Assembly (NCBI GenBank): GCA_018816245.1
Contig: JAHIVW010000003.1
Span: 321,453 to 385,452, forward strand
Direction: 5' to 3'
Source of the DNA: Nanobdellota archaeon
Lineage (GTDB): Archaea; Aenigmatarchaeota; Aenigmatarchaeia; QMZP01
DNA length: 64,000 nt
Position numbers and translations under genes: made by a program. Below the pieces are notes generated by a model. The model made no database searches. It saw nothing but the letters and a program-made list of their open reading frames with translations, and was not told the DNA's origin. Of this stretch, positions 45,185 to 53,753 are shown one piece after another; position 1 is the stretch's first letter; each line of letters opens with the position of its first letter.

Positions 45185-46033
45185 ATGGTTTTCCAGGAAT
45201 ATTTTCTCGATCCCATTCTTGCGAATGGCTACTTCAATCCGATTAATACCGCAGTGTATGCGATCTTGTTGGTGGTGGCGGTCTATATTGTATATCGCGT
45301 CATCACGAAACTGAACATCCCGATTGACAAACATTTCTTCTACGCGATCCTGCCGTTCGTGGTGTGGGGATCCAGTACGCGTGTGTTGCATGATGCTGCC
45401 TTTGTTGGTGTGCTGCCGTCAGGAGTGCAGGAGTTCTATTCAGCGCCCTTCTTTCCGACACCAGGAAGTTACTTGATCACCTTTGTTTTGGCCTTCTCAG
45501 TGTTCCTGCTCTCGATCGGGATCATGAAGGTGGGGAAGATTCCCTACTGGAAGCCCATGGCCGCGATCGGGTCGCTTCTGGTCCTCGTGAACTTCGTGAT
45601 TACCCCTTGGCGGTTCTTCGAGCCCCTCTGGCTTGTTCTGGGGTTACTGGTGGTGTCGGTGGGGATCTTCAATGGGATTGCCCGGCTCCTGCGGCAGCCT
45701 TCGGTGGCGAGGCTCCATCCTGAACTTCCTCGGATTCTGACGCCCGTGAACCAGGGGATCCTGGCAGCGCACTTTCTGGATGCGAGCGCGACCTTCGTAT
45801 CGCTCAGCTTTTTCGGGTACTTCGAGCAACACGTGGTGCCGAACATCCTGATCCCCTTCGTGGGGCCGGTCGCCATGTTCCTGCTCAAGATCGTGGTCGT
45901 GATCCCCGTGGTCTGGGTGATCGGGAAGTATGCCGAGAACGCGAACTTCAGGAACTTCCTGCTGATTGTGGTCTTCATCTTGGGATTTGCGCCAGGGATG
46001 CGGGATTTGCTGCGGCTCATTGCCGGGGTCTAG
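45185..46033 (+). CDS. DUF63-family archaeal membrane protein
   Basis: About 7 TM helices. The N-terminus MVFQEYFLDPILANGYFNPINTAVYAILL recalls archaeal DUF63 proteins. Confidence 0.65.
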   Translation: MVFQEYFLDPILANGYFNPINTAVYAILLVVAVYIVYRVITKLNIPIDKHFFYAILPFVVWGSSTRVLHDAAFVGVLPSGVQEFYSAPFFPTPGSYLITFVLAFSVFLLSIGIMKVGKIPYWKPMAAIGSLLVLVNFVITPWRFFEPLWLVLGLLVVSVGIFNGIARLLRQPSVARLHPELPRILTPVNQGILAAHFLDASATFVSLSFFGYFEQHVVPNILIPFVGPVAMFLLKIVVVIPVVWVIGKYAENANFRNFLLIVVFILGFAPGMRDLLRLIAGV

Positions 46034-46890: not shown

Positions 46891-47148
46891 ATGTTGGAGT
46901 TTTTCGTCTATCTGTTCACAGTGGTTGGGATCATCTCGACCGCGATCTACGTCCTGCACAGGAAGGAGATCAACGCTGCTCTCAAGAAGCCTCAGGTTCC
47001 CCAGGGGTCGACGACACCTGCGACTCCTAAGGCACCCGAGGACCCGATGACGAAGCTCACGGAAACCCTTGAGCAAGTCGTCAAGCGGGTCGAGACGCTC
47101 GAGGCCACCGCCAAAAATCCGAAGAGCACAGGAGGTGGTGGATCATGA
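46891..47148 (+). CDS. Small membrane-anchored protein (85 aa)
   Basis: Strong SD (GGAGG 6 nt upstream). An N-terminal TM helix, then a Pro/Thr-rich linker and a helical tail. There is a 4-nt overlap with the next ORF. Confidence 0.45.
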   Translation: MLEFFVYLFTVVGIISTAIYVLHRKEINAALKKPQVPQGSTTPATPKAPEDPMTKLTETLEQVVKRVETLEATAKNPKSTGGGGS

Positions 47149-47816
47149 AGACCGTCATTATCGTTCTGGCAGTCCTCGCCATCAGCGCAGTGCTCTTCGT
47201 TGCCTTCGGCGGTGCCGGCCTCAACTTGGGGAAGGTCAACCCGAACCTGTTTGGTGGTGACAAGGCGCCTCTGACGAAGGGTACCCGGTATCCCCTGGCC
47301 AGCCATGTCAAGCTCTACGGAGCAGACATGGTGAACGAGGCGGAAGTGAAGACGATCTTGGAGTCCCGGGCGACCACCGACGACATCACGAACTTGCGAA
47401 AGCTCGTGATGAGGGGGGATCTGGACACAACTACTCGAGCAACAATCGAGAAGATGGTCGGCAGCTCCTACCTCCAGAACGCCAAGGATGCCACAAGCGT
47501 TGGGTTCGCGGTGACGGGGGACGACGGCAACCTAGTCGCCATCTCCGTTGGCGAACGCGACCCACTCCGCCTGATCGTCTACTACCTACTCGTCTCCTCC
47601 GACAAGATGATCGTCTATGATCCGGGAGAGGACGTGCCGGTAGGTACGAGGGGTGACCTTGGCATGGGCCTTATCACCCCGGCCGCCCGTCCTACGGCTG
47701 TCCGGTGGGTGAATGGTGCGGCCATATGTGGTACCCTGAACGCCGTCCCCGTGAGGGAGCATACGAGTATCTTCACCACAATTGACCTGACGACGGACAA
47801 GGTCAAGGGACCCTGA
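47145..47816 (+). CDS. Secreted/anchored hypothetical protein (223 aa)
   Basis: N-terminal hydrophobic helix MKTVIIVLAVLAISAVLFVAF. No motif recognised. The composition is GC-rich. Confidence 0.5.
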   Translation: MKTVIIVLAVLAISAVLFVAFGGAGLNLGKVNPNLFGGDKAPLTKGTRYPLASHVKLYGADMVNEAEVKTILESRATTDDITNLRKLVMRGDLDTTTRATIEKMVGSSYLQNAKDATSVGFAVTGDDGNLVAISVGERDPLRLIVYYLLVSSDKMIVYDPGEDVPVGTRGDLGMGLITPAARPTAVRWVNGAAICGTLNAVPVREHTSIFTTIDLTTDKVKGP

Positions 47817-47881: not shown

Positions 47882-47900
47882 AATATAACAGTGTTATATT
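47882..47900. repeat. Palindrome family copy 2 (AATATAACAGTGTTATATT, 9-nt arms)
   Basis: Perfect palindrome around a central G. It lies between convergent gene ends and is followed by GAAAGAAC. Confidence 0.8.
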
Positions 47901-47921: not shown

Positions 47922-50900
47922 TCAAACAATTTCTTGAAACGCCTTCAGGATTTTATCATCATCAAGAGGTGTACTTAACCACTGTTCGTACGCTTTCTTG
48001 CAATTATCCGGGTTTCCGCTATCTTCCAAACAACAGACACCAAGATCTCCTGAAGTTGTGGAAATGGTTTTGCATGCAAGACCTTCTAATGAATTACCAC
48101 CAAGATCGTATTTCGTTACTTGATCACAGTCTGCATCAGCACCTAGGAGTGTTTTGTCACATCCTCCTGCACCAAGACGACAGCCACTCTTCGTCTGCTC
48201 TTTGTACGCTTCGCAATATCCTGGTTTGCCAAAGAGTGAACTCAAACCAGTTATCCCATTCGACGACGTCCCGTTCCCAAAGTCCCCGCAAATGTTGTTG
48301 TTGCACGTCTGCCCGAACGCCGCATACGGGCAGTCGTTCGTCGTTTCGCAGCAGGTCACCCCGCCGAACTCCACCTTCTCGTTCACGGTCTTGGTCTGCG
48401 CAAAGATGTAGTCCGCGTGCGCCCGGACCTGGAACGTCTGCGTCGGGATGTTCTTGTTTCCAAAGGTAAATCGATCCTGGAAGTAGCAGAAGATCGTTGT
48501 CATGCCCTGGGGAATGTTTTCCGGTTTCCATGTATAGGTGGTCGCTGTTGCGCCAGGCGTCGTGGCAAACTTGTTGTTCGTGCAGCTCTTGATTTCCCCA
48601 AGCGCGTTGGGAATGATCAACTGGATCTGCGCGCTCTCGATCTGGGAGCTTGTGGACGCCTGGTATTTCTGCACAGGAACGAGCGACAAACCAATGAACA
48701 GCGGGGTCTTCTCCCGGATCGGTTGTTCAAGGGTGTCGAGGTTCAACTGGACCGGCGCATTGGTGAACGTCGATGCTTTCTTCGTTTGTGTGACAAGTTT
48801 TCCGTCCGCAACCAGGCGATCCCACTCGCCCTGGCTGATGAGCTCCACATCAATGCTGGAGTCGATTTGATACGGATACGTAACCGTGATGTTGAACGGA
48901 ATGTAGAAATTCCGAAGATCTATGTTTGATGTGATTCTCTTGGCACCAATGCCGCCAGCAAGTTTGTTCGCAATTTCGTCGAGGATGTGTTTTGCGCCAA
49001 TCATCTCCGAACAGGAAAACCCATTACTCTGGAAGAATCCCTGGCGGATATCCAGCTTGGTCATGGTTTCAGGAGTTGTGCCGCTGGGCTGCTGGTACGA
49101 GCCAACGGCACCGCCAGGGAAGGGAACGTAAGGGTAATGGACAACCTGATAGCAGGGTTCATCCTTGCTTGTTTGTTGCTGATGATCAACGCCGTCTTTG
49201 TCAATGCATACTTCTTCTCGTTCGGTAGCGTTGAACCCGAACTGGCTGATAGGAACCGTGACCCGGGTGAAGTCGATCTTCCCTCCTGAATCGGAAAACT
49301 TCATGTTGCTCGTTAACGTGACGTTGACATTGCTCGTCTCGAACGCCCCGGAATTCTTCAGTTTGTACACGATCGAGAAAGGTTGGCCTGGAAAGATCGG
49401 CGTGACGTCTATTTTGCCATCAAACTCCACACCGAGCGCTCCTTTTAACCCGGTCGTGGGATCAGTCGCATACGTGCCGTTGAGGATTTGTTGTGTATAT
49501 CCAATGGGATTCGTCAGTAAGAAGACTGCTTGGCCTAACGTGTTGCCAAGTTGCATCATCACTTCTGCTAATGGTTCTGTTAATTCAGCCACGCCGTTGT
49601 GCACGGTGGGCCACCACTGTCCTAACAGTCCGCTGCCAATGTCCTGCGATCCTGGTCCGATACCATAGATGACCGTGGCAGCGCCAAGCATGATCAGCCC
49701 TGCCTCTGGCCGGGCTGCCCGCGATGAAAAGAGTCCTGCGATAAATGAGACAAACCAGAAGTAGAGGAACGTTGCCCGAAGCGTGCCGGTGAGTTCCCAT
49801 CCAGGGCCAAAGGTGAAGAGTGGTGACACAACATTCAGCGCTCCGGAACCCAGCAAAGCAATAAACATCAAACCCACGAAAAGAGCTTTGTCGAACATTG
49901 CGCCAAATTCGCCAGTCGCTGCCTCTTCACTGCTCTCTGTTCCTTTCTTTGATCGCTCCACCGGCGGAACAGCGAAGAAGGCGAGCGCAAGGATTGCAAG
50001 AACATTCGAGTTGAAAATTGTCCCAAACAGGTAGAACGGAATCAAGTAACATCCGAGGATGAGAAATCTCATCAGTGATTCGATTCGTTCGCCAGGAATA
50101 TCAGGATCGTACGCTGTCTTGAGTGAGAAATACCCACCAAGACAAACAATGAGGAAGGCGATGTTGAACGGTCCTCCGAGCGCGCGGAACCCGAAGGCGA
50201 ACAGGGTGATCGCGGAAATCTTGAAAAAACTTCGCATCCAGCCGAACGTGGCATGGGATCGCCCGTCGCTTAACGGATTCATCATCTGGTACCAGATGTT
50301 TTTTCCTTTGTAGAGGTTGCCCTCTTGCGGCGCAGGGGTGACAAAATAGAAGCCAATTGCGAAAAATGCAAACATGAACCAGATCTGGCCGAGCAGGGCC
50401 GACATGGTGATCCCAAGCGCAGCAGCAGCAATTAAATAGAATCCTTTTTGGATGACGCTTTCCCCGTACCGGCGAACGGTCCAGGGTTTTTTGTACGATT
50501 CTTTCAGTTCTTTCAACTTGTCATCAATTTCTTCTTCGTATTGTTTGCTATCACGTTTGAATTGCTCTTCGATTTCCTTTCGCCGTTCATCTAAATCCTT
50601 TTTCGCATCTTGAAAATAATCTTGGGTAATATGACCTCCATTCAATTGATTCTGTAATTTGGTAAGTAAGCCATCAACGTTACGCAGTTCTCGATCACGA
50701 CGAACGCCTGGAAGATCATTCCATTTTTCATGGAGGTTTCTCGTTCTCTCAAGTAAAAGGTTCCGCTGTTGTTGGATATCAGCACGAAGATCCGGATCTG
50801 TTGTTCTTCGAAAACGGTTACCCAGCTCAATACCATGGGTTCGCAGCTGGTCGAGTTCTCTCTTTATTCGCTGCCGCGCAACAAGATGATCACGCTCTGC

Positions 50901-51518
50901 CTTGAGGTCTTTTCTTCGTTGCTTATACTGTTCCCGGACCGGGGCACCGGAGAAGATTCCCGCTGCCTTTCCCTTTTTTTGCTGCTTCTTCACTTGCGCA
51001 GGACTTAATTTTCTTCCTGCATCTCGAAACCCGCGTCGAGTTGCATCCCAATGAGTTGGACAACGCCTATTCAAACAAAAAAACGTCTCTTTTCCTTCAG
51101 TTGAAACGAGCGTGTGCAAGCGTTCCAAACCGCACCACGGACACACAATATCAGAAACCACGCTACTGATTTCGCCACGAAGGATGCGCACTTCGTGTCG
51201 TTTCTTTTCACGCTCCTTTCCTTCAGCACCATAAATGTCCTCGTAAATACCCTGAATTGCTTCCCGGAGTTCTTTCCCAGAAAGATGCCTTGTTTCTTCC
51301 CGAATGCGGCGATCAACTTGTCTGTTTTTTTCTTGCCGCTCAAAAATGGTCCATGCTGATTCTGGTCCCGGACCCGCAACACCAGGCGGCCAGTGGAAAT
51401 CTCCTTCAGGACAGACCACTTCAACCATCCGCTGGCCGGTTCCCGCGACCTTGGATTCGTAGATTTTGAGCTTGCCATGAGCTGAATTAACAGGACATTT
51501 GAGTTCTTTTTCAGCCAA
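47922..51518 (-). CDS. Giant membrane protein (1198 aa): cytoplasmic zinc ribbons plus coiled coil, polytopic core, large extracellular domain with Cys-rich tail
   Basis: The N-terminus has CP...CP and CPWC...C....CP motifs, followed by a long K/R/E-rich helical region. About ten hydrophobic segments lie in the middle. The C-terminal ~560 aa are beta-rich and end in a tail with about 13 Cys. Confidence 0.7.
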   Translation of the reverse strand: MAEKELKCPVNSAHGKLKIYESKVAGTGQRMVEVVCPEGDFHWPPGVAGPGPESAWTIFERQEKNRQVDRRIREETRHLSGKELREAIQGIYEDIYGAEGKEREKKRHEVRILRGEISSVVSDIVCPWCGLERLHTLVSTEGKETFFCLNRRCPTHWDATRRGFRDAGRKLSPAQVKKQQKKGKAAGIFSGAPVREQYKQRRKDLKAERDHLVARQRIKRELDQLRTHGIELGNRFRRTTDPDLRADIQQQRNLLLERTRNLHEKWNDLPGVRRDRELRNVDGLLTKLQNQLNGGHITQDYFQDAKKDLDERRKEIEEQFKRDSKQYEEEIDDKLKELKESYKKPWTVRRYGESVIQKGFYLIAAAALGITMSALLGQIWFMFAFFAIGFYFVTPAPQEGNLYKGKNIWYQMMNPLSDGRSHATFGWMRSFFKISAITLFAFGFRALGGPFNIAFLIVCLGGYFSLKTAYDPDIPGERIESLMRFLILGCYLIPFYLFGTIFNSNVLAILALAFFAVPPVERSKKGTESSEEAATGEFGAMFDKALFVGLMFIALLGSGALNVVSPLFTFGPGWELTGTLRATFLYFWFVSFIAGLFSSRAARPEAGLIMLGAATVIYGIGPGSQDIGSGLLGQWWPTVHNGVAELTEPLAEVMMQLGNTLGQAVFLLTNPIGYTQQILNGTYATDPTTGLKGALGVEFDGKIDVTPIFPGQPFSIVYKLKNSGAFETSNVNVTLTSNMKFSDSGGKIDFTRVTVPISQFGFNATEREEVCIDKDGVDHQQQTSKDEPCYQVVHYPYVPFPGGAVGSYQQPSGTTPETMTKLDIRQGFFQSNGFSCSEMIGAKHILDEIANKLAGGIGAKRITSNIDLRNFYIPFNITVTYPYQIDSSIDVELISQGEWDRLVADGKLVTQTKKASTFTNAPVQLNLDTLEQPIREKTPLFIGLSLVPVQKYQASTSSQIESAQIQLIIPNALGEIKSCTNNKFATTPGATATTYTWKPENIPQGMTTIFCYFQDRFTFGNKNIPTQTFQVRAHADYIFAQTKTVNEKVEFGGVTCCETTNDCPYAAFGQTCNNNICGDFGNGTSSNGITGLSSLFGKPGYCEAYKEQTKSGCRLGAGGCDKTLLGADADCDQVTKYDLGGNSLEGLACKTISTTSGDLGVCCLEDSGNPDNCKKAYEQWLSTPLDDDKILKAFQEIV

Positions 51519-51559: not shown

Positions 51560-52678
51560 TCAGGCCTTCTGGAGGAGCACGGACGCGTCCCCAATTTCCC
51601 AGTTTCCGGTCCCCGAGAAGATCAGGGTGTTTTTCCCTTCCTGCACGTCAGCAGCGCCAAACGTCACGGTATTCTGCCCCTTCACCACGGACGACAGCTG
51701 GAATTCCTTGTCGTTCAGCGTGACCGATAGGGCACCGTTCTTGAGAATCTCATCAACATTGTAGACCAGCACCACATTAGCGTGCCCGTCCGCAACCTGC
51801 TTGGCCTGTTCCTGCGTCAAATCGAACGTCTTGGCCTTTGACAGCTCGCTCGTCAGGAGGAAGATGTTCAGCTGTCCGCCGCCAATCGTGGTCACGCCGG
51901 TCGAGGAAAAGGTGAGCGTGTTCGTCCCCACCTTGAGCGAAACATCAGTCAGCTCAAACGGGATCTCTTCCACTCCAGTTGGTGCACCAGAGAAGAGCTG
52001 CTGGCCATTCACATTGATTGCCAGGAGCCCGCTGCCTGACCCGAAGAATGACAACTCGCCCCGGTCAAAGGTGGCAAGCTCTGAGGAAAAGAGTTCGAAC
52101 GGGAAGATCCGGTCAGGACCATAATCAAGCTCCACTTTCACGTTCTTCAGCACGTAGACGGTCTGCGCCCAGAAGTACAGGCCAGGACCATCTGTGGTGA
52201 ATTCGAGGGTGTTCACGTTCTTGACCACGTCCTTGTCCAGAGTGAGCGACAGTGGCCCGGGGTTCGGATAGCCTGAATACACGGTCACGCCGTTCCACAG
52301 CACGTTCAGTTTCCCGTAATTGTTCGTGTCAAAGACTGAGAACGTGACGCGCACGTTCCGGGTTGTGTCTTCAAAGGCCTTGGGAACGACAATACTCATT
52401 TCCTCTTTCCGTTCGCCACTCAGCCCCTTGGTGACTTCAAGTTGCAAGATGCTCTTCAAGGTTTCGAACTGGGATTCCCCGACTGTGAAGGTTCCCAGGG
52501 TGAGTGACTTCGACGGGAGATTCTGGGAAAAGCCAACTGACCCGACGGTGAACGAGGCGATTGTGGTTTCCTCAACATCCTGGCCCGTGGTGGTCACGAA
52601 CACCGAGGCAACAGCAAAGACAACGAGAATGAGAATCGCGGCTGCGAGGATGTACATGAAGTCATCTGTCCCGCGCAT
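51560..52678 (-). CDS. N-terminally anchored secreted protein with three lectin/LamG-like repeats (372 aa)
   Basis: The start at the ATG at 52678 (MRGTDDFMYILAAAILILVVFAV) leaves a TATA-containing gap to the divergent pelota gene. Three segments follow the pattern L.V..NG...(15-25 aa)...G.NTL.F...G. Confidence 0.6.
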   Translation of the reverse strand: MRGTDDFMYILAAAILILVVFAVASVFVTTTGQDVEETTIASFTVGSVGFSQNLPSKSLTLGTFTVGESQFETLKSILQLEVTKGLSGERKEEMSIVVPKAFEDTTRNVRVTFSVFDTNNYGKLNVLWNGVTVYSGYPNPGPLSLTLDKDVVKNVNTLEFTTDGPGLYFWAQTVYVLKNVKVELDYGPDRIFPFELFSSELATFDRGELSFFGSGSGLLAINVNGQQLFSGAPTGVEEIPFELTDVSLKVGTNTLTFSSTGVTTIGGGQLNIFLLTSELSKAKTFDLTQEQAKQVADGHANVVLVYNVDEILKNGALSVTLNDKEFQLSSVVKGQNTVTFGAADVQEGKNTLIFSGTGNWEIGDASVLLQKA

Positions 52679-52730
52679 ACTATTCTTTTTTGTGAAGAAT
52701 CCATATAAAGCGGCACGGTGAAGCCTTCTC

Positions 52731-53753
52731 ATGATCGTCACGAAGAAGGACCTGAAGGCAGGGACGCTCTCGGTCACCTTGCAGGCTGCGGACGATCTGT
52801 GGCACCTCTCCCATATCATGGAGCCCGGGGACCTCGTGACCGCGAAGACCCTCCGGACGACCACGATCAAACAGGGCGCTGAATTCAAGAAAGGGGACAA
52901 GGTGCCGATGATCTTGACAATCAGGCTCGAGAAGCTTGAGTTCACCGAGGGGTCTGAGGCACTCCGACTTTCTGGAACAATCGAGCAAGGACCAGAAGAC
53001 GTCCAGCTGCATTCGTACCATACGCTGACCATTGAGGTGCGGTCCCACCTGACGATCCAGAAATCATGGAACGGCTACCAGCTCGACCGGATCGAGCGGT
53101 CGCGGATCAAGCAGCCGCTGCTCGTTGTTGTTGCGATCGACCGGGACGAGGCAACGGTTGCTCTTCTACGGGAATCAGGAATTGAATGGAAAGCAAGTCT
53201 GCAGTGCAAAGGAAAGAAGGACATCAAGGACGAAGGTGATCGTGAAGCATTCCACAAACAGATTGCCGCGGTGTTGCAAGAGCAGCCTGCTGACGTCAAG
53301 GCAATTGTGCTCGCAGGTCCGGGATTTGAGAAAGACCACGTCCAGGACTACTTGAAAAAAAATACTCCCGAGCTCGGCGAAAAAACCGTTACGGAAAAAG
53401 CCGCAGATGCTGGACGCCACGGGGTTCAAGAAGTCGTGCAGCAGAGCTCGCAGCGCATCCTGAAGGAGACGCGGATCGCGAAAGAAACCGGCTACTTGAA
53501 GATTTTCTTCACGGAGTTGCGGAAAGAGGGACTCGTAGTGTACGGACCGAAGGAAACGCAAAAGGCGCTCGAGTACGGCGCAGTTGAATTGTTGCTGGTG
53601 TCGGAACACAAAATCAAGGACTTTGACGCGCAGTTGCAGCAAGCAGAGAAAACAGGTGCGACCATCAAGTTCGTGTCCGCAGATCACGAAGCAGGGGAGC
53701 AGTTCTTGGCGCTTGGTGGTATTGGCGGGATTTTGCGGTACAAGGTGCACTAG
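52731..53753 (+). CDS. pelA: Pelota (aPelota/Dom34) ribosome rescue factor
   Basis: MIVTKKDLKAGTLSVTLQAADDLWHLSHIMEPGDLV and an eRF1-like C-terminal domain. Confidence 0.93.
   Translation: MIVTKKDLKAGTLSVTLQAADDLWHLSHIMEPGDLVTAKTLRTTTIKQGAEFKKGDKVPMILTIRLEKLEFTEGSEALRLSGTIEQGPEDVQLHSYHTLTIEVRSHLTIQKSWNGYQLDRIERSRIKQPLLVVVAIDRDEATVALLRESGIEWKASLQCKGKKDIKDEGDREAFHKQIAAVLQEQPADVKAIVLAGPGFEKDHVQDYLKKNTPELGEKTVTEKAADAGRHGVQEVVQQSSQRILKETRIAKETGYLKIFFTELRKEGLVVYGPKETQKALEYGAVELLLVSEHKIKDFDAQLQQAEKTGATIKFVSADHEAGEQFLALGGIGGILRYKVH

What the first reader, a model, noticed from the sequence alone, without database searches (positions are those of the whole stretch)
47922..51518. 1198-aa chimeric surface protein: cytoplasmic zinc ribbons and coiled coil, about ten-helix membrane core, large external domain with a ~13-Cys tail
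The N-terminal ~340 aa contain two zinc-ribbon-like Cys pairs (CP..x..CP and CPWC...C....CP) and a long K/R/E/Q coiled-coil region. About ten hydrophobic segments follow. The C-terminal ~560 aa are beta-rich, with a terminal Cys-dense module (GVTCCETTNDCPYAAFGQTCNNNICGDF...VCCLEDSGNPDNC). Such a protein links the cytoplasm and the cell exterior in one polypeptide. It sits between the two palindrome-bounded units. It is a candidate cell-cell contact, adhesion or conduit protein.
Basis: partly seen in the sequence, partly recalled or inferred. Interest (0 to 1): 0.6.

Follow-up and report, generated by a model that had tools for sequence, protein, structure and literature searches.

The report
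Conserved nine-helix surface protein of Aenigmatarchaeota
This is a real 1198-residue membrane protein of a tiny uncultured archaeon, the membrane base of an undescribed cell-surface gene set kept across its phylum; some relatives carry bacterial-wall-cutting enzymes at the outer tip, which suggests a role in contact with other cells.

Summary
The ORF is real. It lies at 47922-51518 on the minus strand (1198 aa, TTG start). It has a poorly conserved cytoplasmic N-terminus with one clear 4-Cys zinc ribbon and long helices. Nine membrane helices follow (N-in, C-out), then a very conserved helical segment just outside the membrane. Next come beta-sandwich domains and a Cys-rich tail (13 Cys in the last 146 residues).

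It matches no Pfam, NCBIfam or PDB family, and fold searches find only generic beta-sandwiches. It is single-copy and sits in ordinary archaeal chromosome.

Relatives occur only in Aenigmatarchaeota where the source is named, apart from one record labelled Micrarchaeota. They are in nearly every sampled genome of the window's own order and in 117 of 198 sampled genomes of the phylum.

A 372-aa anchored, three-repeat partner gene always lies upstream, beside pelota. In distant families three or four lipoprotein genes follow; these are paralogues of the protein's own outer domain. In this genome they lie on another contig beside AglB.

About 9% of family representatives, one confirmed to lie in the same locus, add murein hydrolases (SLT, glucosaminidase, amidase) after the Cys module.

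Best reading: the membrane base of a phylum-wide envelope complex with a swappable outer tip used for cell contact. The function is inferred, not shown.

The parts
47922..51518 (-). Gene for the 1198-aa nine-helix surface protein (P0001), including the stop codon at 47922-47924
   Evidence: Open frame. Homologues of 30-46% identity. 238 representative clusters at E<=1e-3. Single copy in the 886-kb genome.
50484..51518 (-). Cytoplasmic N-terminal part (residues 1-345): charged, with long helices; poorly conserved
   Evidence: 39% K/R/D/E. Helices 193-343 in the model. Mean pairwise identity 0.20.
51060..51143 (-). Four-Cys zinc ribbon (residues 126-153, CPWC-x18-C-x4-C)
   Evidence: Cys positions. 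Zinc-ribbon Pfam hits recur in N-termini of relatives, all below the Pfam cut-offs.
49659..50483 (-). Nine-helix membrane core (residues 346-620)
   Evidence: AF2 helices, pLDDT about 90 in the second model. K+R distribution across 26 homologues. Mean pairwise identity 0.51. No Pfam, NCBIfam or PDB match.
49449..49658 (-). Juxtamembrane outer helices (residues 621-690; GPGSQ...GQWWP...LLTNPxGY...NG[ST]Y), the most conserved segment
   Evidence: Mean pairwise identity 0.61. Invariant residues. Sequon at N680, where N680, G681 and Y683 are (nearly) invariant and homologues read NG[ST]Y.
48363..49448 (-). Outer beta-sandwich domains (residues 691-1052). The first has the N-x-G..A..V signature typical of CARDB domains. 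The last part is homologous to the C-terminal half of the lipoprotein paralogues
   Evidence: Strands in the models. Only generic beta-sandwich fold hits. The broad profile's positions about 633-810, which I place by eye in the last beta domains, hit separate ~300-370-aa frames at E 1e-13 to 1e-17. BLAST links.
47925..48362 (-). Cys-rich tail (residues 1053-1198): a 5-Cys knot (CC-x5-C-x8-C-x4-C), then an 8-Cys module of about 80 residues ending in AY.EW
   Evidence: Cys positions. Module aligned in 16 family members. In hydrolase-bearing members it is kept and the enzymes follow it.
51560..52678 (-). Partner gene: 372-aa protein with an N-terminal membrane anchor and three internal beta-rich repeats, 41 nt upstream on the same strand
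   Evidence: 34-36% identical homologues in the same position. Distant homologues at E 1e-11 to 1e-21. Repeats by hhalign, probability 91.5 and 84.6. The listed 490-aa ORF overlaps pelota, so the true start is the ATG at 52678.
52731..53753 (+). pelota gene, divergent conserved neighbour (context, probably not functional)
   Evidence: TIGR00111 E 1.1e-73. Adjacent in most loci, including distant families.
45185..46033 (+). DUF63 = AliA/AliB-type gene (archaeal lipoprotein lipidation enzyme family), a recurring near neighbour
   Evidence: PF01889 E 7.9e-59. Near the locus in L001-L003, L009, L011, L015, L017 and L028, and beside the lipoprotein genes in L026. Function from PMC12462473 (abstract only).
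47884..47898 (.). 15-nt palindrome TATAACAGTGTTATA in the convergent gap just past the stop codon
   Evidence: Exact copy here. 11 strand matches (six sites) in the window at up to 2 mismatches, against 0.02 expected. Role not tested.

Best explanation
The gene encodes the membrane-embedded base subunit of a vertically inherited cell-envelope complex found across Aenigmatarchaeota (small-genome DPANN archaea).

Shown or strongly supported:
- Nine helices hold the protein in the membrane.
- The zinc-ribbon and helical N-terminus faces the cytoplasm.
- A conserved helical segment, beta-sandwich domains and a disulfide-type Cys module face outward.
- The gene always pairs with an anchored three-repeat partner.
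- Its outer domain has lipid-anchored paralogues. These are encoded in the same operon in distant families and elsewhere in this genome.

Inferred:
- The base, the partner and the lipoproteins assemble into one surface structure.
- The far end of that structure is a swappable 'tip'. In this organism the tip is a Cys-rich binding module. In about one lineage in eleven murein hydrolases follow it.
- The structure therefore reaches the wall of a neighbouring (bacterial) cell and serves attachment or local wall opening.
- The high conservation of the nine-helix core and the juxtamembrane segment suggests the base does more than anchor (gate, channel or signalling). That step is speculative.
For: - Real gene with conserved architecture.
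- Topology: the second model has a core pLDDT of about 90. K+R sit in alternate loops in 26 homologues. Cys-rich and hydrolase modules lie C-terminal, zinc ribbons N-terminal. All sequons are outside.
- Lineage-wide and chromosomal: single copy. All 13 named hits in species genomes are Aenigmatarchaeota; 4 further hits are unclassified archaea. Matches in 88 of 201 and, with a broader profile, 117 of 198 genomes of the phylum, and in nearly all of the window's own order. Housekeeping neighbours.
- Partner-base pair in every locus that holds enough upstream sequence; lipoprotein genes follow the base in distant families.
- The outer domain is homologous to the lipoproteins. Three lipoprotein paralogues lie in the window's own genome on contig C3, beside AglB.
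- Murein hydrolase tails occur in P0023, P0027, P0037, P0045 (SLT), P0032 (glucosaminidase + amidase), P0104 (glucosaminidase) and others, about 14 of about 160 representatives. P0023 lies in the same pelota | partner | base | DUF63 locus.
- A separate S-layer-type protein exists in the genome.
- Published ideas link large murein-hydrolase surface proteins of other DPANN to attachment to bacteria (PMC8204110, PMC9723730).
Against: - The window's own protein has no hydrolase domain, and no ligand of the Cys module is known.
- Assembly of base, partner and lipoproteins into one complex is inferred from gene linkage and paralogy only.
- In this genome the lipoprotein genes are unlinked.
- A nine-helix core with 51-61% identity is more than an anchor needs, so the main activity may lie in the membrane and have nothing to do with cell contact.
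- Hydrolase tails could serve feeding on wall debris rather than contact.
- About 40% of sampled genomes of the phylum gave no match. This may reflect divergence or true absence.
- Model confidence outside the core is moderate (mean pLDDT 69.8).
Confidence: 0.5

Rival explanations
1. A purely structural envelope component. The base, partner and lipoproteins organise or tether the cell's own surface layer and play no part in contact with other cells. The hydrolase tails of some relatives are membrane-tethered feeding enzymes that use this protein as a convenient anchor.
For: Wide, vertical, single-copy conservation typical of core envelope parts. Lipoprotein paralogues and the AliA/AliB and AglB neighbourhoods point to envelope biogenesis. 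Only about 9% of members carry hydrolases.
Against: A separate S_layer_C protein exists. The far tip is the most variable and modular outer part (identity 0.26). In every hydrolase-bearing member read in full, the added enzymes are placed after the Cys module, as expected for an outward-facing working end.
Confidence: 0.25
2. Primarily a membrane transporter, channel or membrane enzyme (for example a lipid or glycan flippase, or a GT-C-like transferase). Its nine-helix core is the active part and its outer domains are accessory.
For: The core and the juxtamembrane segment are the most conserved parts (0.51 and 0.61). Polar residues are conserved at the outer face (N452, S504, Q625, N670). One homologue is labelled 'MFS transporter' at NCBI. 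There is a weak fold hit to the soluble domain of P. furiosus STT3.
Against: No Pfam or NCBIfam transporter or enzyme family matches any member. Nine helices with no detectable internal repeat is unlike MFS. A true STT3/AglB lies elsewhere in the genome. The invariant residues are mostly G, P, F, Y and W, with no obvious catalytic set. The STT3 hit has TM-score <=0.2 and covers beta-sandwiches only.
Confidence: 0.12
3. A gene derived from a virus or mobile element: tape-measure-like (coiled coil + hydrophobic helices + lysin), or related to the pT26-2 plasmid family.
For: The domain order resembles tape measure proteins with lytic domains (from general knowledge). The best PDB fold hit is pT26-6p (E 8e-5). 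One member has a weak TMP_3 hit (E 0.007).
Against: Single copy in the same chromosomal locus beside pelota across the phylum. G+C is unremarkable. No tblastn match in 50,697 phage or 72,556 plasmid records. No TrbL, and no VirB4-type ATPase above the cut-off. The pT26-6p hit has TM-score 0.10-0.15.
Confidence: 0.03

Closest known systems
Large extracellular or membrane-bound murein-like lytic transglycosylase proteins of Woesearchaeota and Pacearchaeota (fam00969; Castelle et al. 2021, PMC8204110; Vigneron et al. 2022, PMC9723730)
   Same: DPANN archaea, very large surface proteins, bacterial-type murein hydrolase domains facing outward, proposed attachment to or attack on bacteria. Several members of this family carry SLT, glucosaminidase or amidase domains.
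   Different: The window's protein has no hydrolase. The papers do not describe the nine-helix base, the partner or the lipoprotein paralogues. Homology between the two groups was not testable here.
VirB6/TrbL-type polytopic subunits working with VirB1-type wall hydrolases in type IV secretion and conjugation
   Same: A polytopic inner-membrane protein functionally coupled to a murein hydrolase at a cell-cell interface (general knowledge).
   Different: No TrbL match, no VirB4-type ATPase above the cut-off, no transfer genes nearby. Here the hydrolase, when present, is fused to the polytopic protein.
Archaeal lipobox lipoproteins and their lipidation enzymes AliA/AliB (Haloferax volcanii; PMC12462473)
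   Same: The paralogues of the outer domain carry lipobox signals ending in Cys. A DUF63/AliA-AliB gene recurs near the locus.
   Different: The protein itself is anchored by nine helices, not by lipid. No functional link to AliA/AliB was tested.
AglB/STT3 oligosaccharyltransferase
   Same: A polytopic N-terminal part followed by an outer beta-rich C-terminal domain. Weak fold hit to the STT3 soluble domain.
   Different: No STT3 Pfam match, nine rather than 13 helices, no WWDYG motif. A true AglB is encoded elsewhere in the genome.
Phage tail tape measure proteins with lytic domains
   Same: Order of long helices, hydrophobic helices and (in relatives) a C-terminal wall hydrolase (general knowledge).
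   Different: A chromosomal, syntenic, phylum-wide gene with no phage match. Its beta-sandwich ectodomain and lipoprotein paralogues are not tape-measure features.

Membership tests
MFS transporter (label on homologue MBN2042373.1) | Match to MFS profile models | tested here: not met
   No Pfam or NCBIfam match for P0001. No Pfam match for the labelled homologue P0085 or for the 26 members of A4.
MFS transporter (label on homologue MBN2042373.1) | Twelve helices as two six-helix repeats | tested here: not met
   Nine helices. No internal repeat by hhalign, probability <2%.
VirB6/TrbL of type IV secretion | TrbL/VirB6 profile match | tested here: not met
   PF04610 finds nothing in the whole genome at E<=0.01. 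No Pfam hit on the protein.
VirB6/TrbL of type IV secretion | VirB4-type ATPase and transfer genes in the genome or neighbourhood | tested here: not met
   PF12846 gives only an 18.5-bit hit, below the cut-off, and elsewhere in the genome. The neighbours are pelota, the partner, DUF63 and MCM.
AglB/STT3 oligosaccharyltransferase | STT3 profile match, with the WWDYG motif in the C-terminal domain | tested here: not met
   No STT3 match on P0001. The sequence has GQWWPTV but no WWDYG. A true STT3 (PF02516, E 9.8e-21) lies at G000:C3:21914-24487.
CARDB-type beta-sandwich domain (first outer domain) | Match to PF07705 above its cut-off | tested here: not met
   No hit on P0001. Only sub-threshold hits on two lipoprotein paralogues, E 0.022 and 0.16. 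The resemblance rests on the N-x-G..A..V motif and the modelled beta-sandwich.
Murein hydrolase surface proteins (SLT / GH73 / Amidase_3) | Presence of a hydrolase domain | tested here: not met
   Absent from P0001. Present in P0023, P0027, P0037, P0045, P0032 and P0104.
Phage tape measure protein | Tape-measure profile match and a phage tail gene context | tested here: not met
   No TMP Pfam match on P0001. One weak TMP_3 hit, E 0.007, in one of 26 members. No phage tblastn match. Chromosomal synteny.
Aenigmatarchaeota partner / nine-helix base / lipoprotein gene set (unnamed; defined here) | Nine-helix core with the GPGSQ...WWP...LTNPxGY segment, followed by the outer domain shared with the lipoproteins | tested here: met
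   Alignments A1, A4 and A5. BLAST and profile links.
Aenigmatarchaeota partner / nine-helix base / lipoprotein gene set (unnamed; defined here) | Anchored partner gene immediately upstream | tested here: met
   Window 51560-52678, and every locus with enough upstream sequence.
Aenigmatarchaeota partner / nine-helix base / lipoprotein gene set (unnamed; defined here) | Lipoprotein paralogues directly downstream in the same operon | tested here: not met
   Not adjacent in the window or in the 21 other loci of close relatives (L001-L021, L028, L029). Three paralogues lie on contig C3 of the same genome.

The most novel reading that the evidence does not exclude
The nine-helix base with its conserved juxtamembrane segment is the membrane gate of a new kind of contact and feeding apparatus between an archaeon and a bacterium. 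The stalk of beta-sandwich domains, with the lipoprotein paralogues and the partner, carries a tip that binds the wall of a bacterial host and, in some lineages, cuts it. The base then passes material or a signal across the archaeal membrane. A similar gene set noted by this scan in a Woesearchaeal genome would make it a platform shared among DPANN archaea.
Probability: 0.15. Interest if true: 0.9.

Novelty: categorically new. Interest (0 to 1): 0.62.

Why it matters
How DPANN archaea attach to and exploit other cells is a long-standing open question. For Aenigmatarchaeota there is no cultured pair and no known contact machinery.

This work defines a concrete gene set conserved through much of the phylum: an anchored partner, a nine-helix base and lipoprotein paralogues. 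Its far end is modular and in some lineages carries enzymes that act only on bacterial murein.

That gives testable targets:
- ectodomain binding assays;
- activity of the hydrolase-bearing relatives on sacculi;
- antibodies for cryo-ET of enrichments;
- metaproteomics.

It also hints that some Aenigmatarchaeota interact with bacteria rather than with archaea. Even if the role proves purely structural, it would be an undescribed type of archaeal envelope complex built around lipoprotein paralogues of a polytopic protein.

Tried and rejected
- **Plus-strand reading of the stated coordinates:** full of stops.
- **Pfam and NCBIfam on the protein, on 13 long relatives and on all 26 members of A4:** nothing for the core.
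- **Profile search of PDB sequences:** only coiled-coil noise.
- **Foldseek of both models against PDB and BFVD:** only generic beta-sandwich matches with TM-scores <=0.37 (<=0.25 against PDB), and nothing for the membrane core. The pT26-6p and STT3 soluble-domain hits were considered and set aside as domain-level resemblance.
- **Second word-indexed homologue search with alignment A1:** found only the query, because its words came from the low-complexity N-terminus. This was a wasted search. A region-restricted search then worked.
- **Internal duplication of the membrane core:** hhalign probability <2%.
- **Downstream convergent 223-aa gene (47145-47816) as a third conserved subunit:** only 17-26% identity to the genes at the same position elsewhere, so not counted.
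- **Pilin-type (class III) signal in the partner:** the conserved [DE][DE]F before the hydrophobic helix, and the lack of a K/R-G site in distant homologues, argue for a plain signal anchor.
- **Type IV secretion, phage and plasmid origins:** rejected.
- **S-layer protein role:** a separate S_layer_C protein exists.
- **Spread beyond the phylum:** not testable with the handles available.
Full report
**1. The observation**

The stated coordinates hold a 1198-codon frame, but on the minus strand. The plus strand is full of stops. The frame starts with TTG. Homologues begin with the same M/L-A-[ED]-K-E residues, and a GAGG lies about 12 nt upstream, so the start is credible. The region has ordinary composition.

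It sits among archaeal housekeeping genes: pelota, MCM, a sugar nucleotidyltransferase, an Lhr helicase, riboflavin synthesis genes and 2-oxoacid:ferredoxin oxidoreductase. The genome held for the window is 886 kb in 6 contigs and 88% complete. It carries the gene once.

**2. Anatomy**

- **Residues 1-345.** This part is 39% charged and is modelled as long helices at 193-343. C126/C129/C148/C153 form a four-Cys zinc ribbon.
- **Membrane core.** Two AlphaFold2 models were made. The full-length model has mean pLDDT 56.5. The model of residues 340-1198, built on 26 sequences, has mean pLDDT 69.8, with the membrane core near 90. Both give nine membrane helices.
- **Topology.** Across 26 homologues K+R residues average 1.6-4.9 in loops 2-3, 4-5, 6-7 and 8-9. 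They average 0-0.7 in the other loops and after helix 9. This gives N-in, C-out. It fits zinc ribbons on the reducing side and a Cys-rich tail outside. It also fits all five N-x-S/T sequons lying outside. At the first, N680, the N, G and Y are (nearly) invariant and homologues read NG[ST]Y.
- **After helix 9.** Long helices span 624-681 and carry GPGSQ...GQWWP...LLTNPxGY...NG[ST]Y. Beta-sandwich domains follow at 691-1052. Then come a 5-Cys knot and an 8-Cys module of about 80 residues.
- **Conservation.** It is highest in the juxtamembrane helices (0.61) and the core (0.51). It is intermediate in the beta domains (0.41-0.42). It is low in the N-terminus (0.20), an insert at 741-815 (0.19) and the Cys tail (0.26).

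**3. Relatives and spread**

A word-indexed search gave 11 homologues of 30-46% identity, one named Candidatus Aenigmarchaeota. An exhaustive phmmer search of 1.84 billion cluster representatives gave 238 hits at E<=1e-3 and 132 at E<=1e-30.

All 17 hits in species genomes are archaeal MAGs: 13 are named Aenigmatarchaeota and 4 are unclassified archaea. Named cluster members are also Aenigmatarchaeota, except one labelled Micrarchaeota.

A profile from close relatives matched 88 of 201 genomes of the phylum, including nearly every sampled genome of the window's own order. A broader profile matched 117 of 198 genomes and 77 of 119 genera. The remaining genomes may hold versions too divergent to detect, or may lack the gene.

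**4. Gene neighbourhood**

A 372-aa gene lies upstream on the same strand in every locus that holds enough upstream sequence. In most of these loci pelota lies divergently beside it.

In the window this partner is 51560-52678. The longer 490-aa ORF in the mechanical list overlaps pelota and is an artefact. The partner has an N-terminal anchor and three internal repeats (hhalign probability 91.5 and 84.6).

In distant families of the same class the order is usually partner, base, then three or four lipobox lipoproteins of about 280-370 aa, with pelota seen beside the partner in two of these loci. These lipoproteins are paralogues of one another. Their C-terminal halves are homologous to the last outer domain of the base protein. 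BLAST gives E values down to 1.8e-6, and the broad profile hits the separate lipoprotein frames at E 1e-13 to 1e-17.

The window's own genome keeps three such lipoprotein genes on another contig, C3:17319-20498. They lie 1.4 kb from a true AglB/STT3 and a GT4 gene.

A DUF63 gene recurs near the locus. This family is now known as AliA/AliB, the archaeal lipoprotein lipidation enzymes (PMC12462473).

**5. The key clue to function**

Some members are longer and carry bacterial-type murein hydrolase domains at the C-terminus:
- SLT in P0023, P0027, P0037 and P0045;
- glucosaminidase plus Amidase_3 in P0032;
- glucosaminidase in P0104.

Local searches with these segments flag about 14 of about 160 representatives. 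In P0027 and P0032 the 8-Cys module is kept and the enzymes follow it; P0023 and P0037 keep a shorter Cys-rich stretch before theirs.

P0023 lies in the same pelota | partner | base | DUF63 locus. It is therefore an orthologue with a different tip, not an unrelated paralogue. The window's protein has no such domain, and its genome shows none beyond one weak amidase-like hit.

**6. What it is not**

- No Pfam, NCBIfam or PDB sequence match exists for the core or the outer domains.
- Foldseek against PDB and BFVD returns only generic beta-sandwich proteins (factor XIII barrels, Vps26/arrestin, the STT3 soluble domain, pT26-6p) with TM-scores <=0.37 (<=0.25 against PDB), and nothing for the core.
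- One homologue's 'MFS transporter' label has no profile support. The core has nine helices and no internal repeat.
- The genome has no TrbL and no VirB4-type ATPase above the cut-off. There is no phage or plasmid match.
- A separate S_layer_C protein exists.

**7. Most likely mechanism**

Shown: this is a polytopic protein, N-in and C-out, with a conserved partner and lipid-anchored paralogues of its outer domain.

Inferred: these proteins form one surface assembly with a modular far end. In this organism the tip is a Cys-rich module, probably a binding module. In other lineages murein hydrolases are added, so the tip must reach bacterial wall material. I therefore read the assembly as a device for contact with other cells.

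The strong conservation of the core and the juxtamembrane helices suggests an additional membrane activity, which I cannot name.

Rivals are a purely structural envelope scaffold with tethered feeding enzymes (0.25), a transporter or membrane enzyme (0.12) and a mobile-element origin (0.03).

**8. Comparison with what is known, and novelty**

The literature notes large murein-transglycosylase surface proteins in Woesearchaeota and Pacearchaeota. It also notes that Aenigmarchaeota have lineage-specific membrane or extracellular families of unknown function (PMC8204110; PMC9723730). I found no description of this nine-helix base, its partner or its lipoprotein paralogues.

Two earlier notes of this scan describe the same gene set in another Aenigmatarchaeota genome, and a similar operon with murein hydrolases in a Woesearchaeal genome. 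I derived the first independently here. I could not test the second.

No defining feature of any known family that I tested is met, so I rate the system as a new kind. The caveat is that its function is inferred.

**9. Limits**

- No search outside the phylum was possible.

Noticed in passing
G000:C3:17319-25470 (= L031:1319-9470), outside the window: Three tandem lipobox lipoprotein paralogues of the outer domain lie beside a 169-aa protein with a pilin-like N-terminus (MRTGQLVFEFLVAAVLFF), a weak S24-type peptidase hit, a true AglB/STT3 (PF02516, E 9.8e-21) and a GT4 gene. Together they look like an envelope-biogenesis island.
   Followed up: partly
window 45185-46033 (+); L026:8559-12703: A DUF63 = AliA/AliB-type gene (archaeal lipoprotein lipidation family) recurs within a few kb of the locus. 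In L026 it lies directly beside three of the lipoprotein paralogues.
   Followed up: partly
window 47884-47898 (also 46464, 57191, 57641, 58852, 31552): The 15-nt palindrome TATAACAGTGTTATA lies in the convergent gap just past the gene's stop codon. There are 11 strand matches (six sites) at up to 2 mismatches, against 0.02 expected by chance. Its role is untested here.
   Followed up: partly
window 52679-53032 (-): The mechanical ORF list extends the partner gene to 490 aa, which overlaps pelota by about 300 nt on the opposite strand. Homologues show that the true start is the ATG at 52678 (372 aa).
   Followed up: yes
L026:2363-7816 (+): In one distant family an 1817-aa protein matches only the outer-domain part of the family profile. 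It may be a different, larger base or tip architecture.
   Followed up: no
L003:6590-7622 (-): A nucleotidyltransferase (NTP_transf_2/Polbeta) plus a 142-aa gene, a pair typical of toxin-antitoxin modules, is inserted between the partner and the base gene in one relative. The pair can therefore be split without loss of either gene.
   Followed up: no
P0085 and P0037 (public records): The public labels of two family members look wrong. P0085 is labelled 'MFS transporter' but has no Pfam match. P0037 is labelled 'NAD-dependent dihydropyrimidine dehydrogenase PreA subunit', but its only Pfam match at E<=0.001 is an SLT domain.
   Followed up: partly
window 49477-49479 (N680) and 48889-48891 (N876): Two N-x-S/T sequons of P0001 sit in conserved blocks, NG[ST]Y just after the membrane core and IP[FI]N[IV]T in the beta domains. 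This hints at conserved N-glycosylation of the outer part.
   Followed up: partly
G000:C1:70245-70511 (L030), outside the window: An 879-aa frame with an S_layer_C domain (43 bits, above the cut-off) is the likely S-layer protein of this organism.
   Followed up: no
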